DNA from: Rhodoferax sp.
GTDB lineage: Bacteria > Pseudomonadota > Gammaproteobacteria > Burkholderiales > Burkholderiaceae_C
Reading direction: 5' to 3'
Assembly: GCF_028714215.1 (NCBI RefSeq)
Contig: NZ_JAQTMS010000024.1
Span: 6,156 to 70,155 of the forward strand
Length of the DNA: 64,000 bases
Below, piece after piece: positions 19,046 to 49,604 of the stretch. The notes below the pieces were generated by a model. The model was not told where the DNA came from. It made no database searches and saw nothing but the letters and a program-made list of their open reading frames with translations. The stretch's first letter is position 1, and the number at the start of each line of letters is the position of its first letter. A program made the position numbers and the translations under genes.

Positions 19046-20395
19046 ATGGCACGCGAAGGCAATCTGCAAGCTCCCACCCGCCACCCGATAGACTGGAAGG
19101 CTCCCGACTACTACAACGAAGAGGCCACGCTTCTTGAAATGGAGCGCATCTTCGATATCTGCCATGGCTGCCGCCGTTGCGTCAGCCTGTGCGGCTCGTT
19201 CCCCACGCTGTTCGATCTGGTGGACGAGAGCAAGAGCGGCGAGGTCGAGGGGGTAGACAAAAAAGACTACGCCCGCGTGGTCGATCAATGTTATCTGTGC
19301 GATCTGTGCTACATGACCAAGTGCCCTTACGTGCCACCGCACCAGTTCAATCTGGACTTTCCGCACACCATGCTGCGCGCCAAGGCGATCCGGTTCAAGA
19401 AGGGCGAAGTCTCGACGGCCGAGAAATTCCTGGCTTCCACCGATGTACACGGCCAGTTGGCGGGGATCCCTATCGTGGTCCAGGTGGCCAACGCGGTGAA
19501 TCAGACCAAGCTGGCGCGCAAGGTGCTGGAAAGTGTCGCCGGCGTCGATAAGAACGCCTGGTTGCCGTCGCTGGCGACGAAGAAGTTCCGTTCCGGCACG
19601 CCCCAGGCCAAGGCCACGTTGGTGACGCCGGGTGCCAAAACACCCGGCAAGGTCGCCATCTTTGCCACTTGCTACATCAACTACAACGAGCCCGGCATAG
19701 GCCTGGACTTGCTGAAGATTCTGGATCACAACGAGGTTCCCTATGTGATCGTGGAAAAAGAAAAATGCTGCGGCATGCCCAAGCTCGAACTCGGTGACCT
19801 GGAGTCCGTCAATGCCAGCAAGGAGGTCAATATTCCGGTGCTGGCCCGGTACGCCAGGGAGGGCTACGCGATCCTGGCAGCGGTGCCCAGTTGCGCCCTG
19901 ATGTTCAAGCAGGAACTGCCCTTGATGTACCCGATTGAGGCCGACGTGCAACTGGTCAAAGAGGCGATGTGGGACCCGTTCGAGTACCTGATGCAGCGCA
20001 AGCGCGACGGCCTGCTCAAGACCGAGTTCCCGGTGCCCCTGGGCAATGTGAGCTACCAGATTCCCTGCCACGGCCGGGTGCAGAACATCGGCAAGAAAAC
20101 CGAGGAGATGCTGAAGATGATTCCCGGCACCAGCCTCAACACGATAGAGCGCTGCTCGGGCCATGCCGGCACCTTCGGCGTGAAGAAAGCGACGCACCAG
20201 CAGGCCATGAAAATCGGCAAGCCGGTGTTCAAGGCGATGGCCAGCATGAAGGACGGCGCCAAGCCCGATTTCATCAGCTCCGACTGCCCGCTGGGCGGCC
20301 GCCACATTGCGCAGGGTTTTGAGGTCAACGGCCTGGGCGCGCCCCAGTTGCTGCACCCGCTGAGCCTGGTGGCCAAGGCTTATGGATTGAATTAA
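19046..20395 (+). CDS. Fe-S oxidoreductase (4Fe-4S dicluster plus CCG domains), rubrerythrin-associated
   Basis: CHGCRRCVSLC, CYLCDLCYMTKCP, CCGMP, CHGR, CSGHAG, SDCP. Confidence 0.9.
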   Translation: MAREGNLQAPTRHPIDWKAPDYYNEEATLLEMERIFDICHGCRRCVSLCGSFPTLFDLVDESKSGEVEGVDKKDYARVVDQCYLCDLCYMTKCPYVPPHQFNLDFPHTMLRAKAIRFKKGEVSTAEKFLASTDVHGQLAGIPIVVQVANAVNQTKLARKVLESVAGVDKNAWLPSLATKKFRSGTPQAKATLVTPGAKTPGKVAIFATCYINYNEPGIGLDLLKILDHNEVPYVIVEKEKCCGMPKLELGDLESVNASKEVNIPVLARYAREGYAILAAVPSCALMFKQELPLMYPIEADVQLVKEAMWDPFEYLMQRKRDGLLKTEFPVPLGNVSYQIPCHGRVQNIGKKTEEMLKMIPGTSLNTIERCSGHAGTFGVKKATHQQAMKIGKPVFKAMASMKDGAKPDFISSDCPLGGRHIAQGFEVNGLGAPQLLHPLSLVAKAYGLN

Positions 20396-39066: not shown

Positions 39067-40148
39067 GCCGATCCTGCGTCCCAGACCTCGCGCAGCAAAC
39101 GCAGAAAGTTGCCGCCCATGATTTTTTCGATACGCGAGCTGCTGTGCCCACGTTGTTGCAATAGTTCCGCCAGCCTCTGGAATTGTGTCGGGCCGCACAG
39201 GTCGGGTAGAAACAGCGCCACCGCTTCCCTCTCGCCGGCAGCGCCGACGCCGGCCTGTTTGCGTTGCGCCACATCCTGGCCCAGAAAGTGCAGGTAGTTG
39301 GCCAGATCGTCCACCGTGGTGACGTGGCCGTCGCTGCCGATGCCGACGTGGTCCTCGCCGCAGATCTTGATCGCGTGCTCAAGGTGGCGTAGCAGGTCGA
39401 CGGCCATCGGCTGGCCTTGCTGGCGCAGAAACGGCATGCCGTAGAGGCCCAGGACGCCGCCTTTGGCGGCAAGTTGCCGCAGCACGGCATCGCTGGTGTT
39501 GCGCGGCAAGTCGGCCAGCGCCCGGCAGCCGGAGTGGCTGATGGCAACCGGCCGGGTCGCAACGCGCAGAACGTCGAGGCCGGTCTTCTCCGAGCCGTGG
39601 CTCAGATCCACCAGCACGCGCTGCACCTGCATCTGCGCCAGTACTTCATGGCCAAAGCGGCTGAGTCCCTGGTCGTGCGCCACCATGCAGCCATCGCCCA
39701 CCCGATTGCGTCCGTTGTAGCTGAGTTGCATGACGCGCACGCCCAGTGCGGCATAGTGGGCCACGGACTGCGCGTCGTCGCCCAGCATCTCGCTGTTGTG
39801 GAAGCCATAGATCACGCCGACGCGCTCGCTGGCCTGCGCTGCCAGGATATCGCCCGCCGAGTGCACCTTCAGCAAGGCGTCGCTGTGTTCCGCGATGAAG
39901 GCGTCCCAGGCGCGGATGTCGTCCGCCGTCGTGCAGCGTGGGTCGGCGGACCCCAGCACGTGACCAATTGTCAAGTTCACTGCCGTAAGCCCCGATTGCC
40001 TGGCATCGGCCAGGGCCCTGGCGTCGACGCGGGCGCCGATACCGCTGCCGATCCGATCCAGCGTGCCGGCCCTGGCTGCCTCCAGCGCGACATTGGGGTT
40101 GGACAGCAGCCCTTGCAGGTTGATGACGGGGTAGGGCATCACGCTCAT
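39063..40148 (-). CDS. Membrane dipeptidase (peptidase M19 family)
   Basis: MQLSYNGRN, DLSHG, ISHSGCRAL, RNTSD, GEDHVGIGSD. Confidence 0.88.
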   Translation of the reverse strand: MSVMPYPVINLQGLLSNPNVALEAARAGTLDRIGSGIGARVDARALADARQSGLTAVNLTIGHVLGSADPRCTTADDIRAWDAFIAEHSDALLKVHSAGDILAAQASERVGVIYGFHNSEMLGDDAQSVAHYAALGVRVMQLSYNGRNRVGDGCMVAHDQGLSRFGHEVLAQMQVQRVLVDLSHGSEKTGLDVLRVATRPVAISHSGCRALADLPRNTSDAVLRQLAAKGGVLGLYGMPFLRQQGQPMAVDLLRHLEHAIKICGEDHVGIGSDGHVTTVDDLANYLHFLGQDVAQRKQAGVGAAGEREAVALFLPDLCGPTQFQRLAELLQQRGHSSSRIEKIMGGNFLRLLREVWDAGSA

Positions 40149-40244
40149 CGCGCTTCCTTGCTGGTTAGGGAAATTTGCCATTCTAGGAAGGTCGAGGTGG
40201 ACCCGGCCGGGGCAGGTCGGTACATGATGTCCAATCGTCGGCGT

Positions 40245-40258
40245 TTGATGCCTGTCAA
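40245..40258. promoter_or_regulatory. FNR-like box between the dipeptidase and glpA
   Basis: TTGAT-GCCT-GTCAA, 9/10 match. Confidence 0.6.
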
Positions 40259-40445
40259 TGCCGCTACGCCAGTCGCGGCTAAGCTGTAGCCTGGTCGGTG
40301 TCTCAGCAGAAGGGCTTGCGCCGTGGCCGTGCTGCGACACCGGCGGACTGACGTCAAGGGTCAAGCGTGCCCGGGCGGAACAGAGTCCACCCTCCTTCAT
40401 CGGCGCGGCGTGCGAAAGGCGATGGCATTGAATTTCCCATCGGTC

Positions 40446-42002
40446 ATGCAGACCCAGGTCCTGATCATCGGCGGCGGCGTCACCGGCACGGCGCTGGCGC
40501 GCGACCTGGCCTTGCGCGGCGTCGAATGCATGCTGGTCGAGCAGGACGACCTCAACGCCGGCGCCTCGGGGCGCAATCACGGCCTGCTGCACAGCGGCGC
40601 GCGCTATGTCGCCGGCGATTCGGCGGCGGCGATGGAGTGCCGCGCCGAGGGCGCCATTCTCAAGCGCGTGGCGGCCCAGACGATCCAGGATACCGGCGGC
40701 TATTTCGTCGCCGTGCAAGGGGACGACGAACGCTACATCGCCGACTTCCCGTCGCACTGCGCACGCTCGGGCATCACGGCGCGCGCGGTGGATGTCGCCG
40801 CGGCACGGGCCCAGGAGCCGGCGCTCTCAGAACGCACGATCGCCGTGTTCGAGGTGCCCGATGCCGCCATCGACCCGTTCCGGCTCTCGCTGGAGAGCAT
40901 GGCACAAGCGCGCAGCCTGGGCGCCCGGCTGCTGCGGCGCACTCGCGTGGTGGGCTTCGAGCGCGAGGGGCGACGCATTCGCGCGGTGCGCCTTCAGCCC
41001 CGGGCCGGGGGGCCGGAGCTGCGGATCGAAGCCGCGCAGGTGGTCAATGCGGCGGGTGCCTGGGCGCGGGAAGTGGCGCTGCTGGCTGGCGCGGCTATCG
41101 CCATGACTTATTCCAAGGGAACGCTGCTGGTCACGCACACACGCCTGGCCAGTCGCGTGCTCAACCGCCTGCGCCGGCCCGGCAACGGCGACATCCTGAT
41201 GCCCGGCGGCACGGTCTCCATCATCGGCACCACGTCGACGCGGGTCGACTCACTGGAAGACGTTCGCCCCACGACCGCCGAGGCCGACCTGATCATCGAT
41301 GAGGCCGCTCCGATGCTGCCGGCGCTGGCGACGACGCGCTTCATTCGCGCTTACGCTGGCGTGCGTCCGCTGCTGGGCGCCGCGGATGCGGCGGACAGCC
41401 GGGCGGTGTCGCGCGGCTTCGCCTTGTTCGACCACCAGGAGCACGGTCTGGACAACTTCGCCACCCTCACCGGCGGCAAGCTCACCACCTGCCGGCTGAT
41501 GGCCGAACGCGCCGCCGATCTGGTCTGCCGGCGCCTGGGCGTAACAAGCCCTTGCGTCACCGCCACCACGCTGTTGCCGCAGGCGGCGGAATGTGCCTGG
41601 ACCGCGCCCGGGCATTCGGCGCGCGAGTGGATGGCTTCCCGCAGGCCGAATGAGGCGCTGCTGTGTGAATGCGAAATGGTGCCGGCCAGTGCCGTCGATG
41701 CCATCCACGCCGCCTTGCGTGCGGCCGGCGACAGCCCGACACTGACCGACATAGGTTTGCGCAGCCGCGTCGGCAAGGGCGCCTGCCAGGGCGGCTTCTG
41801 CACCGTGCGCATGGCGGCCCACCTGTATCAAAAAGGCGATTTTCAGGCGCGCCGTGGCCTGGCCGAGATGCTTGACTTCGTCGCTGAACGCTGGCGCGGC
41901 CAGCAGGCCGTCCTCTGGGGCGAGCAGCTGGCCCAGGCCGAGTTGGCGGAGGCGCTGCATTGCGGCCTGTTCGGCGAAGAGTTGCGTGAGGAAACACCGT
42001 GA
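40446..42002 (+). CDS. glpA: Anaerobic glycerol-3-phosphate dehydrogenase subunit A
   Basis: IIGGGVTG, GASGRNHGLLHSGARY, IGTTS, AYAGVRPL, GGKLTTCRLMAE; C-terminal CECE...GACQGGFC BFD-like [2Fe-2S] site. Confidence 0.92.
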   Translation: MQTQVLIIGGGVTGTALARDLALRGVECMLVEQDDLNAGASGRNHGLLHSGARYVAGDSAAAMECRAEGAILKRVAAQTIQDTGGYFVAVQGDDERYIADFPSHCARSGITARAVDVAAARAQEPALSERTIAVFEVPDAAIDPFRLSLESMAQARSLGARLLRRTRVVGFEREGRRIRAVRLQPRAGGPELRIEAAQVVNAAGAWAREVALLAGAAIAMTYSKGTLLVTHTRLASRVLNRLRRPGNGDILMPGGTVSIIGTTSTRVDSLEDVRPTTAEADLIIDEAAPMLPALATTRFIRAYAGVRPLLGAADAADSRAVSRGFALFDHQEHGLDNFATLTGGKLTTCRLMAERAADLVCRRLGVTSPCVTATTLLPQAAECAWTAPGHSAREWMASRRPNEALLCECEMVPASAVDAIHAALRAAGDSPTLTDIGLRSRVGKGACQGGFCTVRMAAHLYQKGDFQARRGLAEMLDFVAERWRGQQAVLWGEQLAQAELAEALHCGLFGEELREETP

Positions 42003-43297
42003 GCGACGGAGCGGTCAAGCGCTACGACGTCGCCGTCATCGGCGCCGGCATGGCGGGCATGGCGGCGGCCCTGTTTGCCGCACAGCGGGGCCTCTCCTGC
42101 ATCCAGGTCGGCAGCGGCGGCGGCATTCTGTTCGCCAGCGGGTTGCTGGATCTGCTGGCGGTCCACCCGGTCGTGGAGCGGCGCCTGTGGCAATCGCCTT
42201 ACGCCGCCTTGGCAGCCCTGGCGCGCGAGCAACCCGAGCATCCTCTGGCGCGGGTAGCTCCGGTCGCTATCCGCGCCGCCTTCGAGCGCTTTGTCGCGGC
42301 CCTGGCCGGCGCCGGGATGGCTTACGCCCCGCTGGGGGAGCGCAACAGCCAGTTGCTGACATCGATAGGGACGGTCAAGACCACCTTGGGCGTGCCGCTG
42401 ACCATGGTTGCCGGTGTAGCCGCGCTGGAGCGGCGGCCAGCCTGCCTGCTGGTGGATTTCCGCGGCCTGCGCGAGTTCAGCGCGCGACAGATTGCAGAGA
42501 CGCTGGCCCAGCGCTGGCCGGATCTGCGGCACCAGCGGATCGACTTTCCGGGCTTCGAAGCCGTGCCGGAGGTCTACGCCGTGCATCTGGCACAGGCCCT
42601 GGAAAGCCGGGAAACGCGCGAGCGCACGATTGCACTCATCAAGCCGCAGCTGGGCGATGCGCGTGCAGTGGGACTGCCGGCGGTGCTGGGTCTGGCGCGC
42701 TCGCGCGAGGTCCACGCGGCCTTCGAGGCGGGCTTGGGCCTGCCGGTGTTCGAGATCCCGACCATGCCGACCTCGGTGCCCGGGCTGCGCTTGCTGGGCG
42801 CATTGGAAGCGGCGGTTTCGTCGCTGGGCGTGCTGCGACGCCAGCAGACCCGCGTGCGGGCGCTGACATGGGATGGCAGCAAGGCCCTACTGGACCTCGA
42901 AGGCGTTCCCGGCGGCGAGCGCGTATGCGCCAGCGCGGTGGTGTTGGCGACCGGGCGCTTCAGCGGCCAGGGACTGACGGCCGATCGGCAATGCGTGCGT
43001 GAGAGCCTCTTGAGCTTGCCGGTGCAGCAACCGGCCGCGCGTGACGCCTGGCATCAGCGCGACTTTCTGGACCCGGCGGGCCACGCCATCAACCGCGCCG
43101 GATTGAGTGTGGACGACGCCTGGCGGCCGCTGGACGCCAGCGGGCAGCCGGCCTGGACTAGACTGTTCGCTATCGGCTCGATCCTGGCGCAGCAGGACTG
43201 GATGCGCGCCAAGTGCGGCTCCGGACTGGCCATTGCCACCGCCTGGGCGGCCATAGCGCAGCTCACGCAGCAACTGCGTGGAACCGAGGCTGGCTAG
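41999..43297 (+). CDS. glpB: Anaerobic glycerol-3-phosphate dehydrogenase subunit B
   Basis: VIGAGMAG, FEIPTMPTSVPGLRL, LATGRFSGQGL, GSGLAIAT; GTGA overlap with glpA. Confidence 0.9.
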   Translation: MSDGAVKRYDVAVIGAGMAGMAAALFAAQRGLSCIQVGSGGGILFASGLLDLLAVHPVVERRLWQSPYAALAALAREQPEHPLARVAPVAIRAAFERFVAALAGAGMAYAPLGERNSQLLTSIGTVKTTLGVPLTMVAGVAALERRPACLLVDFRGLREFSARQIAETLAQRWPDLRHQRIDFPGFEAVPEVYAVHLAQALESRETRERTIALIKPQLGDARAVGLPAVLGLARSREVHAAFEAGLGLPVFEIPTMPTSVPGLRLLGALEAAVSSLGVLRRQQTRVRALTWDGSKALLDLEGVPGGERVCASAVVLATGRFSGQGLTADRQCVRESLLSLPVQQPAARDAWHQRDFLDPAGHAINRAGLSVDDAWRPLDASGQPAWTRLFAIGSILAQQDWMRAKCGSGLAIATAWAAIAQLTQQLRGTEAG

Positions 43298-43301
43298 CAT
43301 C

Positions 43302-45011
43302 ATGTCGCACACGCTTTTTCAGAACGCTCTGAACGCATCGCTGCTGCTGTGCGCGCTGGGCTTGCTGTGGCGCGTGTCGGCCTGGTTGCGGCTGCGTATC
43401 GGGTCCGACGCGCAAGCGGTGACGCCGGCGCAGCGGCTGCATGCGTTGCTGCGGGGCGCTGCCGCGGCACTGTTCAGCCGACGCGTGTTTCAAGTGCTCG
43501 GTGCCTTGTGCCTCGACGTGCTGTTGCAGCGTCGCTTGTACCGGCGCGACAAGCCGCGCTGGCTGGCACACCTGCTCATGTTTGCCGGGTTCATGCTGTT
43601 GCTGCTGATGCATGCCCTCGCGGCCTTTGTGGCAGTGAAGCTGTTCCCGGGCTACGAGTCGACGCGAAATCCCTATCTGTTCCTGCGCAATCTGTCCGGG
43701 GCGATGGTCGTGGTCGGCCTGGCACTGTTCCTGTTCGGGCGGTGGCGCCGGCGCACGCGCTTTCCGCCGGCGCGAGGGCCCCTGGCCGCGGCCTTTGTTG
43801 CGCTGCTGGGGTTTGTGCTGGTGACGGGCTTTCTGCTGGAAGCCGACAAGATCGCCTCACCGCAGGCTTTTTACCGCATGGCCAAGGAGTTCAACGGCAG
43901 CACCGATCCAGCCGAGCTAATGCCGCTGCGCGCCCTCTGGGCCAGCGAGTTCGGCGTGGCGTTCGACGACCTGAAGGAGCCGGTCGCAGCGGACGTGATG
44001 CGACAAGGGCGCGCCATGCATGAGGCCGACTGCGCAACCTGCCACGCCAGAGCCGCCTCCGCGTTTGTCTCCTACCCGGTCTCCCGCGTGCTGGCGCCGC
44101 TGGCGGCTGTCCTGGACCGGGGGCATGCAGAGACTTGGCTGCTCTATCTCCACGTGTTCGCCTGTTTCATTGGCCTGGCGACGCTGCCCATCACCCGCTT
44201 TTTCCACGCCGTCGCCGCCCCGGTCAGTCTGATGGTCAACGGTGCGGCGCCGGGTCGGGCGTTCTCCAGCGCTGGACGGGCGTCGCGGCGGGCACTGGCA
44301 CTGGAGGCTTGCGTGCGTTGCGGCATCTGCGATGCGCACTGCTCGGTGGCGCCGCTGGCACGTTATCTGGACAACCCCTATCTGCTGCCCTCGCACAAGC
44401 TCATCGTCACCGGCGCGCTGGCCGGCGGTCGCTTGCAGCGCGCCGGCCGCGAAGACGAAAGCCTTCGGGTTGCCGAAGGCGCTTTTCTCTGCACCGACTG
44501 TGGACGCTGCACCAGCGAGTGCCCGGTGGGGCTGGACCTGGAAGACCTGTGGCAGGCCGGGCGCGCCGACCTCACCGCCGCGGGCCTGCCAGCGCCGGCG
44601 CAGTGGGTGCGGGCACGTCCGGCCCTGGCCTGGGCCGAGTCCTTGCAGAGCGATTCCTGGCCGCGCAGCTTTTTCGATCCGGATGCCTCTCATGCACCGC
44701 TGTCGGCGAATCGCAGCAGCTTCTCACGCTGCGTCCAGTGCCAGACCTGCAGCAACGTCTGCCCGGTGGTGGCGCACAGCACAGACCCCGCCTGCGGCGT
44801 CGATCTGACCCCGCAGAAGGTGATGAACCTGCTGCGCTTGGGTCTGCGCGACCTCACTCTGGGCTCAAGCATGGTCTGGAGTTGCGCCAGTTGCTACCAG
44901 TGCCAGGAGCACTGCCCCGAGGGCATACGCGTGGCCGACATCATGCTCGAGTTGCGCGCGCTGGCGGTGCAGCGCCTGGGCACCGTGCGCAGTCGGAGGG
45001 CGCTGGCATGA
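43302..45011 (+). CDS. NarI-like polytopic membrane protein with a CxxCH motif fused to two 4Fe-4S diclusters (HdrC-like)
   Basis: TM helices with His (WLAHLLMF..MHAL, LYLHVF, FFHAV), CATCH, then CVRCGICDAHC, CTDCGRCTSECP, CVQCQTCSNVCP, CASCYQCQEHCP. Confidence 0.85.
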   Translation: MSHTLFQNALNASLLLCALGLLWRVSAWLRLRIGSDAQAVTPAQRLHALLRGAAAALFSRRVFQVLGALCLDVLLQRRLYRRDKPRWLAHLLMFAGFMLLLLMHALAAFVAVKLFPGYESTRNPYLFLRNLSGAMVVVGLALFLFGRWRRRTRFPPARGPLAAAFVALLGFVLVTGFLLEADKIASPQAFYRMAKEFNGSTDPAELMPLRALWASEFGVAFDDLKEPVAADVMRQGRAMHEADCATCHARAASAFVSYPVSRVLAPLAAVLDRGHAETWLLYLHVFACFIGLATLPITRFFHAVAAPVSLMVNGAAPGRAFSSAGRASRRALALEACVRCGICDAHCSVAPLARYLDNPYLLPSHKLIVTGALAGGRLQRAGREDESLRVAEGAFLCTDCGRCTSECPVGLDLEDLWQAGRADLTAAGLPAPAQWVRARPALAWAESLQSDSWPRSFFDPDASHAPLSANRSSFSRCVQCQTCSNVCPVVAHSTDPACGVDLTPQKVMNLLRLGLRDLTLGSSMVWSCASCYQCQEHCPEGIRVADIMLELRALAVQRLGTVRSRRALA

Positions 45012-45823
45012 CCGCCGTGAAATACGCGCTGTTCCTGGGCTGCAAGATCCCCGCGCGGCTGCCGGCCTACGCCGCGTCCACCCGCGCCGTGTTGCAGCAT
45101 CTGGGCGTCACGCTGGTCGATCTGGAATTCAACTGCTGTGGCTATCCGGCCCGGGACGTCAGCCGCGACGCCTTCGTGCTGGCCGCCGCCCGCAACCTGG
45201 CGCTGGCCGAGCAAGCCGGCCTGGACCTGCTGACGCCTTGCGCCTGCTGCTTCGGCACTCTGCGCCATGCCATCACTTTCCTGGAAGAGGACGCAGCGCT
45301 GCGCTCGCGCGTGACCCAGGCGCTGGCCGCCGAGGGCCTGACCTGGTCGGGCCAGGCACAGGTCGAGCACGTGTTGCCGGTGCTGGCCAAAGTGATCGGA
45401 GTCGACGCGCTGGCCGCCGCGGTGCGCGCGCCGCGCTCCGGTCTGCGGGTCGCTGCCCAGTACGGTTGCCACACGCTGCGCCCCAGCAACGTGGCGCGAT
45501 TCGACAACCCGATGGCGCCGACGCTGTTCGAAACCTTGATCCGCCTGACCGGCGCGACACCCATCGACTGGCCCAGGCGGCTGGATTGCTGCGGCGATCC
45601 GCTGCATGGGGCCAACACCCCGCTGTCGGAGCAAATCACGCGCGCCAAGATCGCCGATGCCCTGGCGTCCGGTGCCCAAGTGATGTGCACCGCCTGCCCG
45701 CACTGCCATCTGCGCTTCGATGGGGTGCAGGCGGACGTTGCCGACCCGTCGCTTCGCACCCTGCTGTACACCCAATTGTTGGGACTGGCACTGGGCCTGC
45801 CAGAGAAATCCCTGGGGCTTTAG
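45008..45823 (+). CDS. Heterodisulfide reductase subunit B-like CCG protein
   Basis: FLGCKIP, NCCGYP, PCACCFGTL, QYGCH, CCGDP, TACPHCHLRFD; ATGA overlap with the upstream gene. Confidence 0.88.
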   Translation: MTAVKYALFLGCKIPARLPAYAASTRAVLQHLGVTLVDLEFNCCGYPARDVSRDAFVLAAARNLALAEQAGLDLLTPCACCFGTLRHAITFLEEDAALRSRVTQALAAEGLTWSGQAQVEHVLPVLAKVIGVDALAAAVRAPRSGLRVAAQYGCHTLRPSNVARFDNPMAPTLFETLIRLTGATPIDWPRRLDCCGDPLHGANTPLSEQITRAKIADALASGAQVMCTACPHCHLRFDGVQADVADPSLRTLLYTQLLGLALGLPEKSLGL

Positions 45824-45853
45824 TACTCCGGATCTTTCCCGAAAGGATGGCAT

Positions 45854-46019
45854 GCCAAACGCCGTTCAGCGTAGCGGGTGGATCAGGCCGGTGGGGCACT
45901 CAGCTCCGTGTCCCCCGCCCTGCGGGCTCCTCCTTTACCTGCGCTAAGTGCCCCACCGACCTGGTCTCTCGTGCAGGGTTGGTGTGCGACCGGCGCAAAC
46001 CACAGACGCTTGCCGCCGA
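45854..46019 (+). repeat. Composite palindromic dispersed repeat, left copy
   Basis: GGTGGGGCACTCAGC...GCTAAGTGCCCCACC inverted repeat; matches 48593-48898. Confidence 0.88.
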
Positions 46020-46055
46020 TCGCGGGGGTAGCACGATTTTCTGACCGCACCGCAT

Positions 46056-46445
46056 TCATGGCTGGGCTTCGGCAAGGTAGCTTGCCTCCGAACCGGCCCC
46101 ACGCGAAGGATTCAGCAAGTGGACCAGCTTGACCTCGCCCGCGCCGATCGGCGCTGCCTGACCGGGCCGGGGCAGCGCGATCTTATCGAGCGGCACCGGC
46201 CCGGCGCCGCTCGCCAGCAAAGCCAGGCCCCAAGTGCCGTTGGCAAGCTGCACCACAGCGAAACGATCTCCCTCGGCAATGCGTGACAGCAAGCCAACCG
46301 ATTTGGCAATGGCGGGCGTGGCCTGCGCCGCGTAGACGGTGCGAACCACCGCCTTGTCCGGCTCGGAGGCGAAGCTTGATGCCGTCCAGCAAACTGCAAG
46401 CTGCAGCGTCGCCGTGATTGAAATGAGGCGTGCGCTTTTTTTCAT
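46056..46445 (-). CDS. Hypothetical secreted protein (possibly truncated)
   Basis: MKKSARLISITATLQLAVCWTASSFA signal-like N-terminus; no recognised domain. Confidence 0.5.
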   Translation of the reverse strand: MKKSARLISITATLQLAVCWTASSFASEPDKAVVRTVYAAQATPAIAKSVGLLSRIAEGDRFAVVQLANGTWGLALLASGAGPVPLDKIALPRPGQAAPIGAGEVKLVHLLNPSRGAGSEASYLAEAQP

Positions 46446-46502
46446 ACCCTGATCCCTTTTTGGTGACAGGCTTTGATGCTAGCGAAGTCGCTGCCGCTTG
46501 TA

Positions 46503-46522
46503 TGTCCCCAGAACTGGGGACA
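46503..46522. promoter_or_regulatory. Perfect inverted repeat, candidate response-regulator site
   Basis: TGTCCCCAG-AA-CTGGGGACA; weaker GTCCCAG-GTAA-CTGGAAC nearby at about 46540. Confidence 0.55.
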
Positions 46523-46649
46523 AAGGGCACCGACAATGGTCCCAGGTAACTGGAACTACCGGCGACATTGCCGGCAGTCGATATGTGGCAATATTTGACT
46601 CTCGCCGAGTCGCAAGGCGATTGTTAACCCTCTCCGAAGGTTGCTTCAT

Positions 46650-47336
46650 ATGCAAGATATCCCCATCTCCCTCATCCGCGTGGCGCTGGTTGAGGACGAT
46701 GTCAATTTTCAGAATGCGCTGATGGATGCGATGCGCGGCGCCCCGGACATGAAACTGCTGAGCGTGGCGGGAACGCGGGCGCAGGGCTTGCAGGCGCTGG
46801 ATCAGGTGCAGATCGATGTGCTGTTGGTCGATCTGGGCCTGCCGGACGGCTCCGGCATCGACGTCATCCGGGCCGCGCATGCGAAGCAGCCGGGCTGCAA
46901 CATCATGGTCAGCACCACGTTCGGCGACGAGACCCATGTGATGCAATCGCTGGAAGCGGGGGCTTCGGGCTATTTGCTCAAGGACAGCGAGCCGCAAAGA
47001 ATGATTTTTGAAATCCGCAGTCTGTACGCGGGAGGCAGTCCGATCAGCCCGCTGATTGCGCGCCAGATTCTGACGCGCTTCCGGCACAACGACAAACCTG
47101 CCACCGCCTTGGCGAAGCCGAATGCCACCGAACAGCAAATCCGCCTGTCGGCACGCGAAAAGGAAGTGCTGGAGTTCATCACGCGCGGTTATACCTCGGA
47201 CGAAATCGCCGAGCTGATCAGCGTCTCGCGCCATACCGTGCTCACCTACGTGCGGCGCATCTACGCAAAGTTGGAGGTCACCTCCAAAACCGAGGCGATT
47301 TTCGAGGCACGCAAACAGGGCTTGCTGGATGATTAG
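46650..47336 (+). CDS. NarL/LuxR-family response regulator
   Basis: VALVEDD, LVDLGLPDGSG, GYLLK; LSAREKEVL..IAELISVSRHTV HTH. Confidence 0.95.
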   Translation: MQDIPISLIRVALVEDDVNFQNALMDAMRGAPDMKLLSVAGTRAQGLQALDQVQIDVLLVDLGLPDGSGIDVIRAAHAKQPGCNIMVSTTFGDETHVMQSLEAGASGYLLKDSEPQRMIFEIRSLYAGGSPISPLIARQILTRFRHNDKPATALAKPNATEQQIRLSAREKEVLEFITRGYTSDEIAELISVSRHTVLTYVRRIYAKLEVTSKTEAIFEARKQGLLDD

Positions 47337-48588
47337 TCTGGCGCGCTTTCTTCAAAAGGATAACCCGCTGCGCCTGGCGGAAGACCGCATCCTGGTAGAA
47401 CAATTGCGACTGTTGATGGGCAATGTGGGCAGCTCGGTTATTCCCGCGTTTCTGCTGGCGCTTCTGATGTTGTGGGTGTTGAACAACCACGGCAATTCGG
47501 CAGGCCTGTTGCTGTGGTGCGCAGCGGTGATCCTGTCGAAACTGATCTGCTACGTCCATGCGCGCCGCCATCTTGCTTCCGATATTTCATTCACGCATGC
47601 ACGTCGTCTGGCTTGGGAGTTGATGCTTTTGAACGCGGTGGATGGCGCACTCTGGGGTGCGCTGGCGTGGGTCACATTGGACACATCCACGACGGCGGGC
47701 AGCATTCTGGTGGTTTCGGTGACGGCGGGTATCGCGGGCAGCTCCATGTCGCTTCTGTCGCCGGTGCTGCCGGTGTTCGTCATATTCGCTTTTGCCGAAC
47801 TGGCCGCCGTGGCGTCAAAAGTGTTTTTGCTGGGTGATCCCGCCTATAACGCCTTGGGCGTTGCCGGAATTTTATTCATCGCAACATTGCTTGGTCAGGC
47901 ACGCAACAGCTATCTCGCTGCGCGCGTGACGATTGATCTGCGTTTCGAGCTGGCGGATAGCCACAGGCGCCTGCGCGAAATCGAACAGCGGCAGATGCTG
48001 GCACAGGAACGCCAGCGCCTGATGCAGGACATGCACGACGGCCTGGGCTCGTCGCTGGTCAGCGCGTTGCGTGTGGTGGAGCACGGACAGATGGGTGAGT
48101 TTGAAGTGGCGCAGGTGCTCAAAGGTTGCATCGACGATCTCAAGCTGGCGATCGATTCGCTGGAGCCGGTGGAAGCCGACTTGCTGCTGTTGCTGGCAAC
48201 GCTGCGCTTCCGTCTCGGACCGCGCCTGGAAAGCACCGGCATTGCTTTGCGCTGGGAAGTGACCAGCGTGCCCAGCCTCGAATGGCTCAACCCGAAAATA
48301 GCGCTGCACATTTTGCGCATCCTGCAGGAGGCGTTCACCAACATCATCAAGCACACGCAAGCCACGGAGATACGCGTCACCACTCCCGTCGATGGCAGTC
48401 ATGTCGTGGTGTGCATCGTCGATAACGGCGCAGGGTTCTCGGTCGCTGACGCGCTCAGGAATGGCGGCAAGGGGTTGTCAAACCAGCAGCGCCGCGCTCA
48501 AGCCATCGGCGCGGAGGTGGGCTGGGAATCGAGCCACGCGGGAAGTTGTTTCAGTTTGCGCTTGCCCATCGGGAAGACGGTGAATTGA
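47329..48588 (+). CDS. Membrane sensor histidine kinase (HisKA_3 type)
   Basis: Multiple N-terminal TM helices; ERQRLMQDMHDGLGSSL H-box, EAFTNIIKH, DNGAGF, GKGL. Confidence 0.95.
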   Translation: MISLARFLQKDNPLRLAEDRILVEQLRLLMGNVGSSVIPAFLLALLMLWVLNNHGNSAGLLLWCAAVILSKLICYVHARRHLASDISFTHARRLAWELMLLNAVDGALWGALAWVTLDTSTTAGSILVVSVTAGIAGSSMSLLSPVLPVFVIFAFAELAAVASKVFLLGDPAYNALGVAGILFIATLLGQARNSYLAARVTIDLRFELADSHRRLREIEQRQMLAQERQRLMQDMHDGLGSSLVSALRVVEHGQMGEFEVAQVLKGCIDDLKLAIDSLEPVEADLLLLLATLRFRLGPRLESTGIALRWEVTSVPSLEWLNPKIALHILRILQEAFTNIIKHTQATEIRVTTPVDGSHVVVCIVDNGAGFSVADALRNGGKGLSNQQRRAQAIGAEVGWESSHAGSCFSLRLPIGKTVN

Positions 48589-48592
48589 ACGG

Positions 48593-49049: not shown

Positions 49050-49604
49050 CTACGGGAGCGGGCGACCCTTGCCCTGGGTACCTTCGGCGCGCGCCGAAAG
49101 ATAGGCGTAGAGATCCACAATATGGGCGTTCACGCTGGGTTCGCCTTGCCAGGCGGGCATCATGAGGCCAGGCCCCCTGCGTTGCAGGATTTCCTCGATC
49201 AAGGCGTCCAAGGCCGCGCTTTCGCTTCCTGCCTGAGTCGGCGGAAGATTCCAGTCGTAGCGCTTGAGCACCAGCCCGACGAACCTGCGTGCGCCCATCT
49301 GCCGAACCAGGGGCAGCAGATCCGGACCGATTGCGGTTCCGGTCGCATCGGGTCCGTGACAGCTGGCGCAGCGGTCCTGGAACACGCGCCACCCGGTGTA
49401 GACAGAGCCCGGCGGTCTGGACAGCCGCGCGACCTCTTGAGCCGCCTGTCGGTTCGCCAATTCGACGCCCACCTGGCCCGCGCATCCGGCCAACAGCAGG
49501 GCCGACGCGAGAACACCGCAGCACCGGACGGTGCGACCTATTGCCGACGTCCGACCGGAGGTCGGCTGCACAGAAAACATTGAAAACTTTGCCACTGTTG
49601 CCAC
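49050..49604 (-). CDS. c-type cytochrome lipoprotein (monoheme; start uncertain)
   Basis: LLLAGC lipobox, CASCHG heme motif, LMMPAW distal Met region. Confidence 0.85.
   Translation of the reverse strand: MATVAKFSMFSVQPTSGRTSAIGRTVRCCGVLASALLLAGCAGQVGVELANRQAAQEVARLSRPPGSVYTGWRVFQDRCASCHGPDATGTAIGPDLLPLVRQMGARRFVGLVLKRYDWNLPPTQAGSESAALDALIEEILQRRGPGLMMPAWQGEPSVNAHIVDLYAYLSARAEGTQGKGRPLP

What the first reader, a model, noticed from the sequence alone, without database searches (positions are those of the whole stretch)
43302..45011. Unusual single-chain architecture: NarI-like heme-b helices, heme-c loop and four [4Fe-4S] motifs
Seen: TM His residues (AHLLMF, MHAL, YLHVF, FFHAV), a CATCH motif (44031-44045) in a long hydrophilic loop between TM helices, then four CxxCxxCxxxC motifs. 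Known: HdrE/NarI carry b-hemes and QmoC has its Fe-S domain N-terminal to the membrane part; a c-heme loop inside such a domain with a doubled HdrC tail is not an architecture I can name. Inference: a transmembrane wire from cytoplasmic Fe-S clusters to a periplasmic heme c.
Basis: partly seen in the sequence, partly recalled or inferred. Interest (0 to 1): 0.7.

Follow-up and report, generated by a model that had tools for sequence, protein, structure and literature searches.

The report
Haem b/c membrane anchor for GlpAB

Summary
ORF 43302-45011 (569 aa) has five TM helices with His90/His104 (TM2) and His284/His302 (TM5). A 98-residue acidic loop between TM4 and TM5 carries C244-A-T-C-H248, and four CxxCxxCxxxC motifs follow.

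The gene is translationally coupled in a glpA-glpB-X-hdrB-like operon. This cassette is conserved in about 58 genome loci of Betaproteobacteria, Myxococcota and Oligoflexales.

In 57 aligned homologues (29-87% identity), His104, His284, His302, Met193, CxxCH and all 16 Fe-S cysteines are invariant, and His90 is kept in 56. A motif scan found CxxCH in all 343 further family members and in 62 of 66 long cluster representatives.

Charge bias, NarI homology and the cytoplasmic Fe-S tail all place the loop in the periplasm. A profile of the loop alone hits only c-type cytochromes in the PDB.

The nearest solved fold is mycobacterial EtfD (EMO/HdrF family), which is described with haems b only.

Best reading: X replaces the membrane-facing half of GlpC and conducts electrons from glycerol-3-phosphate to the periplasmic face. 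Whether the final acceptor is a periplasmic cytochrome or a quinone is unresolved.

It is a new variant of a known kind. No haem binding was measured.

The parts
40323..42002 (+). [quoted passage not shown] The true start is probably ATG 40422 or 40446.
   Evidence: NF008313 scores 485 bits (cut-off 425). TIGR03377 scores 552.2 bits (cut-off 552.8). Pfam DAO. The Cys motif is at residues 448-493.
41999..43297 (+). glpB, the second flavoprotein subunit. Its start overlaps the glpA stop.
   Evidence: NF003725 scores 523.8 bits (cut-off 345). Pfam FAD_binding_2.
43302..45011 (+). X, the finding itself: a 569-aa fusion of a NarI/EtfD-like cytochrome domain with two HdrC-like dicluster domains.
43302..44246 (+). 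NarI/EMO-like five-helix membrane domain (residues 1-315), N-terminus out and C-terminus in.
   Evidence: Hydropathy and charge bias. The family profile hits E. coli NarI at E 7.6e-6. Foldseek finds 9OJN EtfD and NarI chains.
43569..43613 (+). TM2 haem ligands His90 (43569-43571, proximal side) and His104 (43611-43613, distal side).
   Evidence: His90 is kept in 56 of 57 homologues and His104 in 57 of 57. The 14-residue spacing equals SaEMO His87/Ala101.
43845..44138 (+). Periplasmic loop between TM4 and TM5 (residues 182-279), four short helices, acidic. It is a mini cytochrome-c-like insert, about 60 residues longer than the same loop in NarI.
   Evidence: Net charge is -5.9 across the family. 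A loop-only profile gives 60 best PDB hits that are all c-type cytochromes. pLDDT is about 90-97.
43878..43880 (+). Met193, an invariant candidate sixth (distal) ligand of the haem c.
   Evidence: Kept in 57 of 57 homologues. A Met lies 40-60 residues before CxxCH in 231 of 231 members. Its role as ligand is inferred.
44031..44045 (+). CATCH (Cys244-x-x-Cys247-His248), the predicted covalent haem c attachment site.
44151..44207 (+). TM5 haem ligands His284 (44151-44153, distal) and His302 (44205-44207, proximal), 18 residues apart.
   Evidence: They align with NarI His187 and His205. They are invariant.
44301..44534 (+). First dicluster ferredoxin domain (residues 334-411), 2 x [4Fe-4S], most like the C-terminal part of SdhB/FrdB.
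   Evidence: Pfam Fer4_8 at 334-411. TIGR00384 dhsB at 332-414. All Cys are invariant.
44715..44984 (+). Second dicluster domain (residues 472-561), HdrC-like, 2 x [4Fe-4S]. It presumably docks the HdrB-like subunit.
   Evidence: HdrC chains 5odc_C and others at E 8e-11. TIGR03290, QmoC and GlpC N-terminal matches. Foldseek finds HdrC.
45008..45823 (+). HdrB-like subunit (271 aa) with two complete CCG domains. Its ATG overlaps the TGA of X.
   Evidence: Pfam CCG x2. TIGR03288 scores 193 bits and SdhE 149 bits. The Cys pattern is and the overlap.

Best explanation
X is the membrane anchor and electron-output subunit of a variant anaerobic glycerol-3-phosphate (G3P) dehydrogenase made of GlpA, GlpB, X and an HdrB-like protein. 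Together, X and the HdrB-like protein replace GlpC.

The HdrB-like subunit is expected to hold two non-cubane Fe-S clusters and to take electrons from the GlpAB flavins. The two HdrC-like domains of X would pass them through four [4Fe-4S] clusters to a proximal haem b (His90/His302). From there they would cross the membrane to a distal haem b (His104/His284), and then reach a covalently bound His/Met-ligated haem c (Cys244, Cys247, His248, probably Met193) in the periplasmic TM4-TM5 loop.

I take the haem c to be the exit point. It would hand electrons from cytoplasmic G3P to a periplasmic acceptor, most likely the c-type cytochrome pool that feeds cbb3 oxidase, denitrification enzymes or metal reduction.

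Shown here:
- the sequence features, their conservation and the predicted topology;
- the operon and its conservation;
- homology to NarI, EtfD and HdrC, and of the loop to cytochromes c.

Inferred:
- cofactor occupancy;
- the order and direction of electron flow;
- the final acceptor. This last step I hold at only about 45%, against about 40% for a quinone.
For: Operon:
- The four genes are coupled: the glpA stop overlaps the glpB start, there is a 4-nt gap before X, and ATGA joins X to hdrB.
- The same cassette is found in every genome locus where the contig allows (about 58), at 50-94% identity. It also occurs around members 44-48% identical to X by local tblastn (35-44% in the alignment): L067, L069 and L070, the last with a DeoR regulator.
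- Recurrent neighbours look like an ugpBAEC-type G3P ABC transporter and an FGGY (glycerol) kinase. This is my reading of the printed sequences; no family search was run on them.
- No GlpC above cut-off exists in the genome.

Membrane domain:
- Five TM helices with positive-inside charge bias across 57 sequences.
- The profile matches E. coli NarI at E 7.6e-6, with NarI His187 and His205 aligned on His284 and His302.
- The AF2 model has pLDDT 89.8. Its best PDB match is EtfD 9OJN (E 1.2e-6), followed by HdrC chains. For the N-domain alone the order is EtfD, then NarI.

Haem c:
- CxxCH and Met193 are invariant, and a CxxCH is present in 343 of 343 further members scanned.
- The loop profile hits only c-type cytochromes, aligned on their haem-binding helix and CxxCH, best E 2.6e-4. 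Pfam Cytochrome_CBB3 matches weakly in 20 of 30 loops.
- Cytochrome c maturation genes are present in this genome and in 7 of 7 other carrier genomes tested.

Fe-S:
- All 16 Cys are invariant.
- The HdrB-like subunit has two complete CCG motifs.

Electron path by analogy:
- In EtfD and SaEMO the path runs flavin, non-cubane clusters, cubanes, haem b.
Against: - No haem, Fe-S or activity measurement exists for any member.
- All characterised relatives (NarI, HdrE, DsrM, EtfD, EMO) react with quinones or methanophenazine, and known G3P dehydrogenases reduce quinones.
- Bypassing the quinone pool and bc1 would waste energy.
- No periplasmic cytochrome gene is conserved beside the cassette.
- P0001 itself gets no Pfam NarI hit at E <= 0.01, and Foldseek TM-scores are low (0.28-0.45).
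- Cytochrome c maturation genes are common (9 of 14 control genomes), so their presence is a weak test.
Confidence: 0.6

Rival explanations
1. Same complex and cofactors, but the acceptor is a quinone bound at the periplasmic (distal) side, as at the NarI Q_D site or the SaEMO distal site. The haem c would be an auxiliary cofactor next to the distal haem b. It could tune potential or allow two-electron quinone reduction, like the second haem of the SaEMO twin-haem or haem c_n of cytochrome b6f. It would not be an exit to soluble proteins.
For: - The whole superfamily is quinone- or phenazine-reactive, and EtfD and SaEMO deliver electrons to (methyl)menaquinone.
- GlpABC and GlpD are quinone reductases (established knowledge).
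- The TM2 His spacing of 14 equals SaEMO His87 to Ala101, the position that faces the second stacked distal haem. The distal site may therefore be unusual here too.
- No partner cytochrome gene is conserved nearby.
Against: - G3P (about -190 mV) can reduce ubiquinone or menaquinone without help from the membrane potential, so a full transmembrane haem chain would be needless for that job. EtfD does it with the proximal haem alone.
- An invariant Met and the class-I-like helix plus CxxCH are typical of six-coordinate electron-transfer haems that face other proteins.
Confidence: 0.3
2. The CxxCH does not bind haem. It would be a periplasmic redox-active or structural disulfide, or a metal site, and X would be a plain dihaem b anchor.
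For: - No experimental haem data exist.
- Matches of the loop to cytochrome c profiles are weak (best E 2.6e-4 against the PDB) and below Pfam gathering scores.
Against: - The His directly after the second Cys is invariant, as is a Met about 50 residues upstream. A CxxCH is present in all 343 further members scanned. A disulfide would not need either residue.
- All 60 best PDB hits of the loop profile are c-type cytochromes aligned exactly on their haem site.
- The location is periplasmic and maturation genes are present.
Confidence: 0.08
3. The module works inward. It would take electrons from periplasmic cytochromes or quinol and deliver them to the HdrB-like site in the cytoplasm, as in TmcABCD or DsrMKJOP. 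The glpAB linkage would then reflect something other than G3P oxidation.
For: - Stand-alone X plus HdrB-like pairs without glpAB occur in Thermodesulfobacteriota-type contigs (L064-L066, L071).
- A fused variant sits beside GcvH-like and lipoate-ligase-like genes.
- For those members an inward, disulfide-reducing role is plausible.
Against: - For the glpAB-linked clade (100/100 support), GlpA and GlpB score as genuine equivalogs, and the neighbours look like a G3P transporter and a glycerol kinase, which points to catabolism.
- Reducing DHAP with quinol or cytochrome c is strongly uphill.
Confidence: 0.05

Closest known systems
EMO / EtfD / HdrF (ETF:(methyl)menaquinone oxidoreductase; M. smegmatis EtfD PDB 9OJN, S. 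aciditrophicus EMO, Desulfobacterium autotrophicum HdrF1-3)
   Same: - NarI-like five-helix membrane domain with N-terminus out and C-terminus in.
- Followed by an HdrC-like cubane domain and working with an HdrB-like CCG (non-cubane cluster) module.
- It wires a cytoplasmic flavoprotein to the membrane.
- Best Foldseek hit.
- hdrF1 and hdrF2 lie next to glpAB in D. autotrophicum.
- The ligand spacings of 14 and 18 residues equal those in SaEMO.
   Different: - EMO, EtfD and HdrF are single chains with one HdrC domain and a fused HdrB domain, and are described with one, two or three haems b only.
- X has a roughly 50-60-residue insert in the TM4-TM5 loop with an invariant CxxCH.
- X has a fourth invariant His (His104) where SaEMO has Ala.
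- X has a second dicluster domain, giving four cubanes.
- X has a separate HdrB-like subunit.
- Sequence similarity of the TM domains is too low for HMMER to find.
E. coli GlpC (GlpABC)
   Same: - Encoded directly after glpA-glpB.
- Two-cubane ferredoxin domain plus two CCG domains.
- Passes electrons from GlpAB to the membrane.
   Different: - GlpC is one soluble or peripheral chain with no TM helices and no haem.
- Here its two halves are split over X and the HdrB-like protein.
- The ferredoxin half is doubled and fused to a cytochrome.
- X scores 43.6-65 bits against cut-offs of 278-280.
NarI (gamma subunit of nitrate reductase A)
   Same: - Five TM helices.
- Two His on TM2 and two on TM5, the latter 18 residues apart and aligned with NarI His187 and His205.
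- Same topology.
   Different: - NarI is a separate 225-aa subunit with a short TM4-TM5 loop, no haem c and no Fe-S tail.
- Its TM2 His spacing is 10, not 14.
- It works inward, from quinol to the cytoplasm.
HdrDE of Methanosarcina
   Same: A NarI-like cytochrome b (HdrE) works with cubane and CCG modules (HdrD). EMO papers model it as a structural twin.
   Different: - Two subunits split at a different point: TM domain | HdrC+HdrB.
- No haem c.
- It reduces heterodisulfide with methanophenazine.
TmcABCD and DsrMKJOP of sulfate reducers (from general knowledge of these complexes, bioRxiv 2026.08.25.746951)
   Same: A transmembrane conduit that joins periplasmic c-type haem(s), a NarI-like dihaem b and a cytoplasmic HdrD-like Fe-S/CCG protein. 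It is the same kind of wire.
   Different: - There the c-type cytochrome (TmcA, DsrJ) is a separate multihaem subunit.
- Here a single haem c site is built into a loop of the b-cytochrome itself.
- The cytoplasmic partner here is a dehydrogenase.
QmoC
   Same: A fusion of an HdrC-like dicluster domain with an HdrE/NarI-like membrane domain. It is the best NCBIfam match, at 72.9 bits.
   Different: - The domain order is reversed, with Fe-S N-terminal.
- One dicluster domain and no CxxCH loop.
- The score is far below the cut-off of 300.

Membership tests
NarI family (Pfam PF02665, Nitrate_red_gam) | Five TM helices, N-terminus periplasmic, C-terminus cytoplasmic | tested here: met
   The hydropathy scan gives five segments. 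Charge bias over 57 sequences is +6.5 and +3.1 for the inner loops and -5.9 for the long loop. AF2 helices agree.
NarI family (Pfam PF02665, Nitrate_red_gam) | Two His on TM2 and two His on TM5 (18 apart) that ligate proximal and distal haem b | tested here: met
   His90, His104, His284 and His302 are invariant or nearly so. NarI His187 and His205 align with His284 and His302. The TM2 spacing is 14, not NarI's 10.
NarI family (Pfam PF02665, Nitrate_red_gam) | Sequence match to the family model above threshold | tested here: inconclusive
   P0001 has no PF02665 hit at E <= 0.01. Many homologues carry precomputed PF02665 hits, mostly weak or faint. The family profile hits NarI chains at E 6e-6 to 1.5e-5. 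Foldseek probability is 0.90-0.92 with TM-scores of 0.28-0.40.
EMO / EtfD / HdrF | Single chain: NarI-like TM domain + one HdrC-like domain + fused HdrB-like (CCG) domain | tested here: not met
   X has two dicluster domains and no CCG domain. The CCG protein is a separate gene at 45008-45823. A minority variant of the same family (P0130, P0172, P0382-P0394) does have the fused form.
EMO / EtfD / HdrF | Overall fold like EtfD | tested here: met
   9OJN is the best PDB hit at E 1.2e-6, probability 1.0, TMq 0.45, and also the best hit for the N-domain alone.
EMO / EtfD / HdrF | Electron donor is ETF (etfAB neighbourhood) | tested here: not met
   The neighbours are glpA and glpB in all loci of the clade. 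HdrF1 and HdrF2 of D. autotrophicum are also glpAB-linked.
EMO / EtfD / HdrF | Haems are b-type only | not testable with these tools
   The sequence predicts an extra covalent haem c. Occupancy needs biochemistry.
c-type cytochrome (covalent haem via CxxCH) | CxxCH motif, conserved | tested here: met
   Invariant in 57 of 57 aligned homologues. By motif scan it is present in 62 of 66, 231 of 231 and 112 of 112 members.
c-type cytochrome (covalent haem via CxxCH) | The motif lies on the periplasmic side, where the maturation systems act | tested here: met
   Predicted only: charge bias, the cytoplasmic Fe-S tail and the NarI/SaEMO topology.
c-type cytochrome (covalent haem via CxxCH) | Cytochrome c maturation genes in the genome | tested here: met
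   Three PF01578 genes are in the own genome. Seven of seven other carrier genomes have them. This is a weak test, because 9 of 14 control genomes also have them.
c-type cytochrome (covalent haem via CxxCH) | Match to a cytochrome c family model above threshold | tested here: not met
   PF13442 has a best E of 0.0014 and is below its gathering score. The loop profile against the PDB gives only c-type cytochromes but with a best E of 2.6e-4, restricted to the helix and CxxCH. The loop is not a full class-I fold.
c-type cytochrome (covalent haem via CxxCH) | Covalently bound haem | not testable with these tools
   Needs haem staining, pyridine haemochrome spectra or mass spectrometry.
GlpC (TIGR03379 / NF008369) | Score above the curated cut-off; two cubanes and two CCG domains in one soluble chain | tested here: not met
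   Scores are 43.6 and 65.2 bits against cut-offs of 279.9 and 278, and only the second dicluster domain matches.
GlpC (TIGR03379 / NF008369) | Encoded directly downstream of glpA-glpB | tested here: met
HdrC (TIGR03290) | Score above the cut-off; partner of HdrB | tested here: inconclusive
   The score is 57.5 bits against a cut-off of 160. PDB HdrC chains match at E 8e-11, and Foldseek probability is 1.0 for HdrC. An HdrB-like gene follows with overlapping stop and start.
QmoC (NF038018) | N-terminal HdrC-like domain followed by an HdrE-like membrane domain; score >= 300 | tested here: not met
   The score is 72.9 bits and the domain order is reversed.

The most novel reading that the evidence does not exclude
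The GlpAB-X-HdrB complex is a quinone-independent glycerol-3-phosphate:cytochrome c oxidoreductase. It would be a cytoplasmic flavoprotein dehydrogenase that exports its electrons straight through the membrane (4 cubanes, 2 haems b, 1 in-loop haem c) to the periplasmic cytochrome pool, bypassing both the quinone pool and bc1. More widely, the X/HdrB pair would be a compact single-chain counterpart of Tmc- or DsrMKJ-type transmembrane conduits, used by many Thermodesulfobacteriota, Myxococcota and Betaproteobacteria.
Probability: 0.35. Interest if true: 0.75.

Novelty: new variant of a known kind. Interest (0 to 1): 0.6.

Why it matters
How anaerobic G3P dehydrogenase meets the membrane is still poorly defined, even for E. 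coli GlpC. Here nature offers a version in which the missing link is explicit: a NarI/EtfD-type cytochrome fused to the Fe-S wire.

Recent structures of the HdrDE/EMO/EtfD superfamily describe membrane domains with one, two or three haems b. A widespread branch with an invariant in-loop haem c site would add a b/c hybrid. I counted at least 900 clusters at 90% identity, and public databases name them only '4Fe-4S dicluster domain-containing protein'.

If the haem c is an exit, cytoplasmic substrates could feed periplasmic cytochrome chains (low-oxygen oxidases, denitrification, metal reduction) without passing through quinones.

The claim can be tested directly by haem staining and spectra of one expressed complex.

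Tried and rejected
- **Pfam and NCBIfam on X.** These gave only generic Fer4 families and sub-threshold QmoC, GlpC and HdrC hits, and no NarI hit at E <= 0.01. Homology of the membrane domain had to come from a family profile and from folds.
- **Single-sequence phmmer against the PDB.** This found only HdrC and other ferredoxin domains.
- **The search for related loci with the diverse N-domain alignment A3.** This failed because no stretch was conserved enough. The closer alignment A1 was used instead, so the genome scan covers only relatives of at least about 50% identity.
- **Foldseek TM-scores.** They are low (0.28-0.45), and structure coordinates are not exposed. I could not measure haem-site distances or judge whether the CxxCH edge is exposed or packed on the distal haem.
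- **Promoter and terminator scan of 39900-46200.** It found no sigma-70-like promoter and only one hairpin, inside the X coding region (44461-44480, listed on both strands), fewer hits than in shuffled sequence. It is uninformative.
- **Literature searches.** None described a NarI/HdrE/EMO-type protein with a CxxCH loop. This shows absence from the held library, not proof of absence.
- **The nearby monohaem cytochrome c gene (49050-49604, minus strand) as dedicated partner.** Considered and set aside. It is on the opposite strand and is found beside the cassette only in the closest relative, L004.
- **A canonical GlpC elsewhere in the genome.** Considered and rejected: the best hit scores 133.9 bits against a cut-off of 279.9.
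Full report
**Observation.** Window 43302-45011 (+) is one open frame of 569 codons. His90 lies in AHLLMF, His104 in MHAL, His284 in YLHVF and His302 in FFHAV. C244-A-T-C247-H248 is encoded by nt 44031-44045. CxxCxxCxxxC motifs start at residues 337, 397, 477 and 528. A 19-residue hydropathy scan gives five membrane segments (about 9-27, 88-112, 126-147, 161-181 and 280-303). The CxxCH therefore sits in a 98-residue hydrophilic loop between TM4 and TM5. The real start is the ATG at 43302, four bases after the glpB stop and preceded by GAGG, not the upstream GTG. Homologues begin at the same Met.

**Gene context.** The gene is the third of four tightly packed genes on the + strand.
- glpA (40323-42002) scores 485 bits with NF008313 (cut-off 425).
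- glpB (41999-43297) scores 524 bits with NF003725 (cut-off 345).
- X follows.
- A 271-aa protein with two CCG domains (45008-45823) is closest to HdrB (193 bits) and SdhE (149 bits).

The glpA stop overlaps the glpB start, and the TGA of X overlaps the ATG of the HdrB-like gene. The HdrB-like protein has both complete CCG cysteine sets. None of GlpA, GlpB or the HdrB-like protein has a 19-residue window more hydrophobic than 1.75, against 1.9-2.6 for TM2-TM5 of X. X therefore looks like the only membrane-integral part.

**Conservation.** A word-indexed search found 911 relatives. A full scan with the N-terminal 320 residues found 400 cluster representatives at 50% identity, 215 of them below E 1e-10.

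In an alignment of 57 full-length members at 29-87% identity the invariant columns include His104, Met193, Trp213, Cys244, Cys247, His248, His284, His302 and all 16 Fe-S cysteines. His90 is kept in 56 of 57.

By motif scan, 62 of 66 long (>=480 aa) representatives carry exactly one CxxCH at about the same residue number. The four exceptions did not match the query over the loop: two matched only the N-terminal part, one only residues 2-163, and one has a degenerate low-complexity sequence. Every one of 231 and 112 further members has a CxxCH in its N-terminal 330-340 residues. The motif is thus a defining feature of the family and not an accident of this sequence.

**Topology.** Across the 57 sequences, the loops between TM1-TM2 and TM3-TM4 are strongly basic (net +6.5 and +3.1). 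The N-terminus, the TM2-TM3 loop and the long TM4-TM5 loop are neutral or acidic (the long loop has net -5.9). With the Fe-S domains necessarily cytoplasmic, this gives N-terminus out and C-terminus in, and places CxxCH in the periplasm. NarI and the S. aciditrophicus EMO structure have the same topology.

**Homology of the parts.**
- A profile of the membrane domain hits E. coli NarI at E 7.6e-6. The TM5 alignment puts NarI His187 and His205 on His284 and His302. The TM4-TM5 loop is about 60 residues longer than in NarI.
- An AlphaFold2 model built on the 57-sequence alignment is confident (mean pLDDT 89.8, pTM 0.87, loop about 90-97).
- Its best PDB match is M. smegmatis EtfD, 9OJN (E 1.2e-6), followed by HdrC chains. 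For the membrane domain alone the order is EtfD and then NarI.
- The C-terminal dicluster domain matches HdrC chains by sequence (E 8e-11).
- A profile of the loop alone (residues 183-279) retrieves only c-type cytochromes among its 60 best PDB hits. They include the flavocytochrome c haem subunit (E 2.6e-4), CcoP, the QcrC-type subunits, c1 and c6. All that were inspected align on the helix that precedes their CxxCH.
- Pfam Cytochrome_CBB3 matches 20 of 30 loops weakly.

The loop therefore looks like a cut-down cytochrome c haem-binding segment grafted into a NarI-type cytochrome b. Its likely sixth ligand (Met193) lies on the helix that follows TM4.

**Family and contexts.**
- The glpA-glpB-X-hdrB cassette is intact in every genome locus where the contig allows, about 58 in all. 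The genomes are MAGs labelled Comamonadaceae, Rhodoferax, Rhodocyclaceae, Sulfuritalea, Sterolibacterium, Casimicrobiaceae, Myxococcales/Anaeromyxobacteraceae and Oligoflexales.
- It also occurs around more distant members: L067, L069 and L070, the last with a DeoR regulator.
- Recurrent neighbours look like a ugpBAEC-type G3P ABC transporter and an FGGY kinase. This is my reading of the printed sequences, not a family search.
- Other members, from contigs labelled Deltaproteobacteria, Desulfobacterales, Syntrophobacteria or Thermodesulfobacteriota, have only the X plus HdrB-like pair (L064-L066, L071).
- A minority variant has the same membrane domain and CxxCH loop fused to one dicluster domain and two CCG domains. 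That is the EMO/HdrF layout. Two of these lie beside GcvH-like and lipoate-ligase-like genes.
- In a maximum-likelihood tree, the glpAB-linked members of Betaproteobacteria, Myxococcota, Oligoflexales, L067 and L069 form one clade (100/100). The fused variants group apart. One glpAB-linked member (L070) is unresolved among the stand-alone ones.

**The genome.** It is 5.16 Mb in 116 contigs, estimated complete.
- It has three Cytochrom_C_asm genes.
- It has two GlpD-like genes.
- It has no GlpC above cut-off.
- Seven of seven other carrier genomes also have maturation genes.
- The cassette is accessory. It is present in 6 of 37 genomes of the genus and in none of 24 other families of the order sampled.

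**Mechanism.** The sequence features, topology, conservation, operon and homologies are shown. The rest is inferred by analogy with EtfD and SaEMO, where electrons pass from a flavin to the non-cubane clusters of the HdrB-like domain, through two cubanes, to the proximal haem b and on to quinone.

Here I propose the path G3P, GlpA/GlpB flavins, HdrB-like clusters, four cubanes in X, haem bP (His90/His302), haem bD (His104/His284), haem c (Cys244/Cys247/His248, Met193). The full, invariant set of distal ligands plus a periplasmic haem c argues that electrons travel all the way across the membrane. G3P is reducing enough to reduce quinone at the cytoplasmic side, as EtfD does with its single haem.

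I therefore favour an exit to a periplasmic acceptor, the c-type cytochrome pool. The margin over reduction of quinone at a distal site, with the haem c as helper, is small (about 45% against 40%).

One further point may bear on this. The TM2 spacing His90-His104 (14) equals SaEMO His87-Ala101, and Ala101 is the position facing the second haem of the stacked 'twin haem'. A His at that place could mean an unusual distal site here as well. I could not align the two sequences directly.

**Comparison with what is known.** The superfamily is known, and so is its modular logic. HdrDE, EMO/EtfD, the 'HdrF' genes next to glpAB in Desulfobacterium autotrophicum, and GlpC are all relatives. Conduits that join periplasmic c-haems, a NarI-like cytochrome b and a cytoplasmic HdrD-like protein exist as multi-subunit complexes (Tmc, DsrMKJOP; general knowledge).

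Three things are not described in the papers I could search:
- a haem c site built into a loop of the NarI-type domain itself;
- a doubled HdrC-like domain;
- a split-off HdrB.

The 2026 EMO preprint lists the membrane domains of this group as tri-, di- or mono-haem b. Public databases name the family only '4Fe-4S dicluster domain-containing protein' or 'heterodisulfide reductase subunit C/nitrate reductase gamma subunit'. I rate it a new variant of a known kind.

**Limits.**
- No cofactor has been measured for any member.
- The genome scan reached only relatives of at least about 50% identity.
- Contexts of distant members rest on ten short metagenome contigs.

Noticed in passing
window 46020-48592: A block of about 2.6 kb holds a secreted 129-aa ORF, a LuxR-type response regulator and a histidine kinase. 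It is absent from the syntenic locus of the closest relative, L004, where the hdrB-like gene is followed almost directly by the cytochrome c gene. Repeat copies flank the block: window 48593-48700 matches L004 9642-9747.
   Followed up: partly
window 49050-49604 (-): A 184-aa ORF has a lipoprotein-like N-terminus and one CASCH motif, so it is a likely membrane-tethered monohaem cytochrome c. It converges on the glp cassette and is adjacent to it in L004 at 96% identity. It is not conserved beside the cassette in other loci, so a dedicated partnership is unproven.
   Followed up: partly
L062 143-3862; L068 45-2676: A fused variant of the family (CxxCH-loop membrane domain + one dicluster domain + two CCG domains, about 710 aa) lies next to a GcvH-like lipoyl-carrier gene in both loci. 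In L062 it also lies next to two lipoate-protein-ligase-like genes. This recalls the lipoate-binding-protein link of sulfur-oxidising Hdr-like systems. It hints at a different cytoplasmic partner for the same b/c wire.
   Followed up: no
window 43569-43613 and 44151-44207: The ligand spacings in X (His90 to His104 is 14; His284 to His302 is 18) equal those reported for S. aciditrophicus EMO (His87 to Ala101; His233 to His251). Ala101 faces the second haem of the stacked twin haem. X has an invariant His at that position. The offset of 51 between His233 and His284 roughly matches the size of the loop insert.
   Followed up: partly
window 19268-20380 (ORF 19046-20395, +): This is the best match in the genome to the GlpC model, at 133.9 bits against a cut-off of 279.9. 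It is a separate CCG/Fe-S protein, probably a GlcF-type subunit, and is unrelated to the glp cassette.
   Followed up: no
window 44461-44480: A perfect 8-bp GC-rich hairpin (GCCTTCGG GTTG CCGAAGGC) followed by a T-rich tail lies inside the X coding region, in the helix before the second Fe-S motif. Such hits are fewer than in shuffled sequence, so it is probably chance.
   Followed up: no
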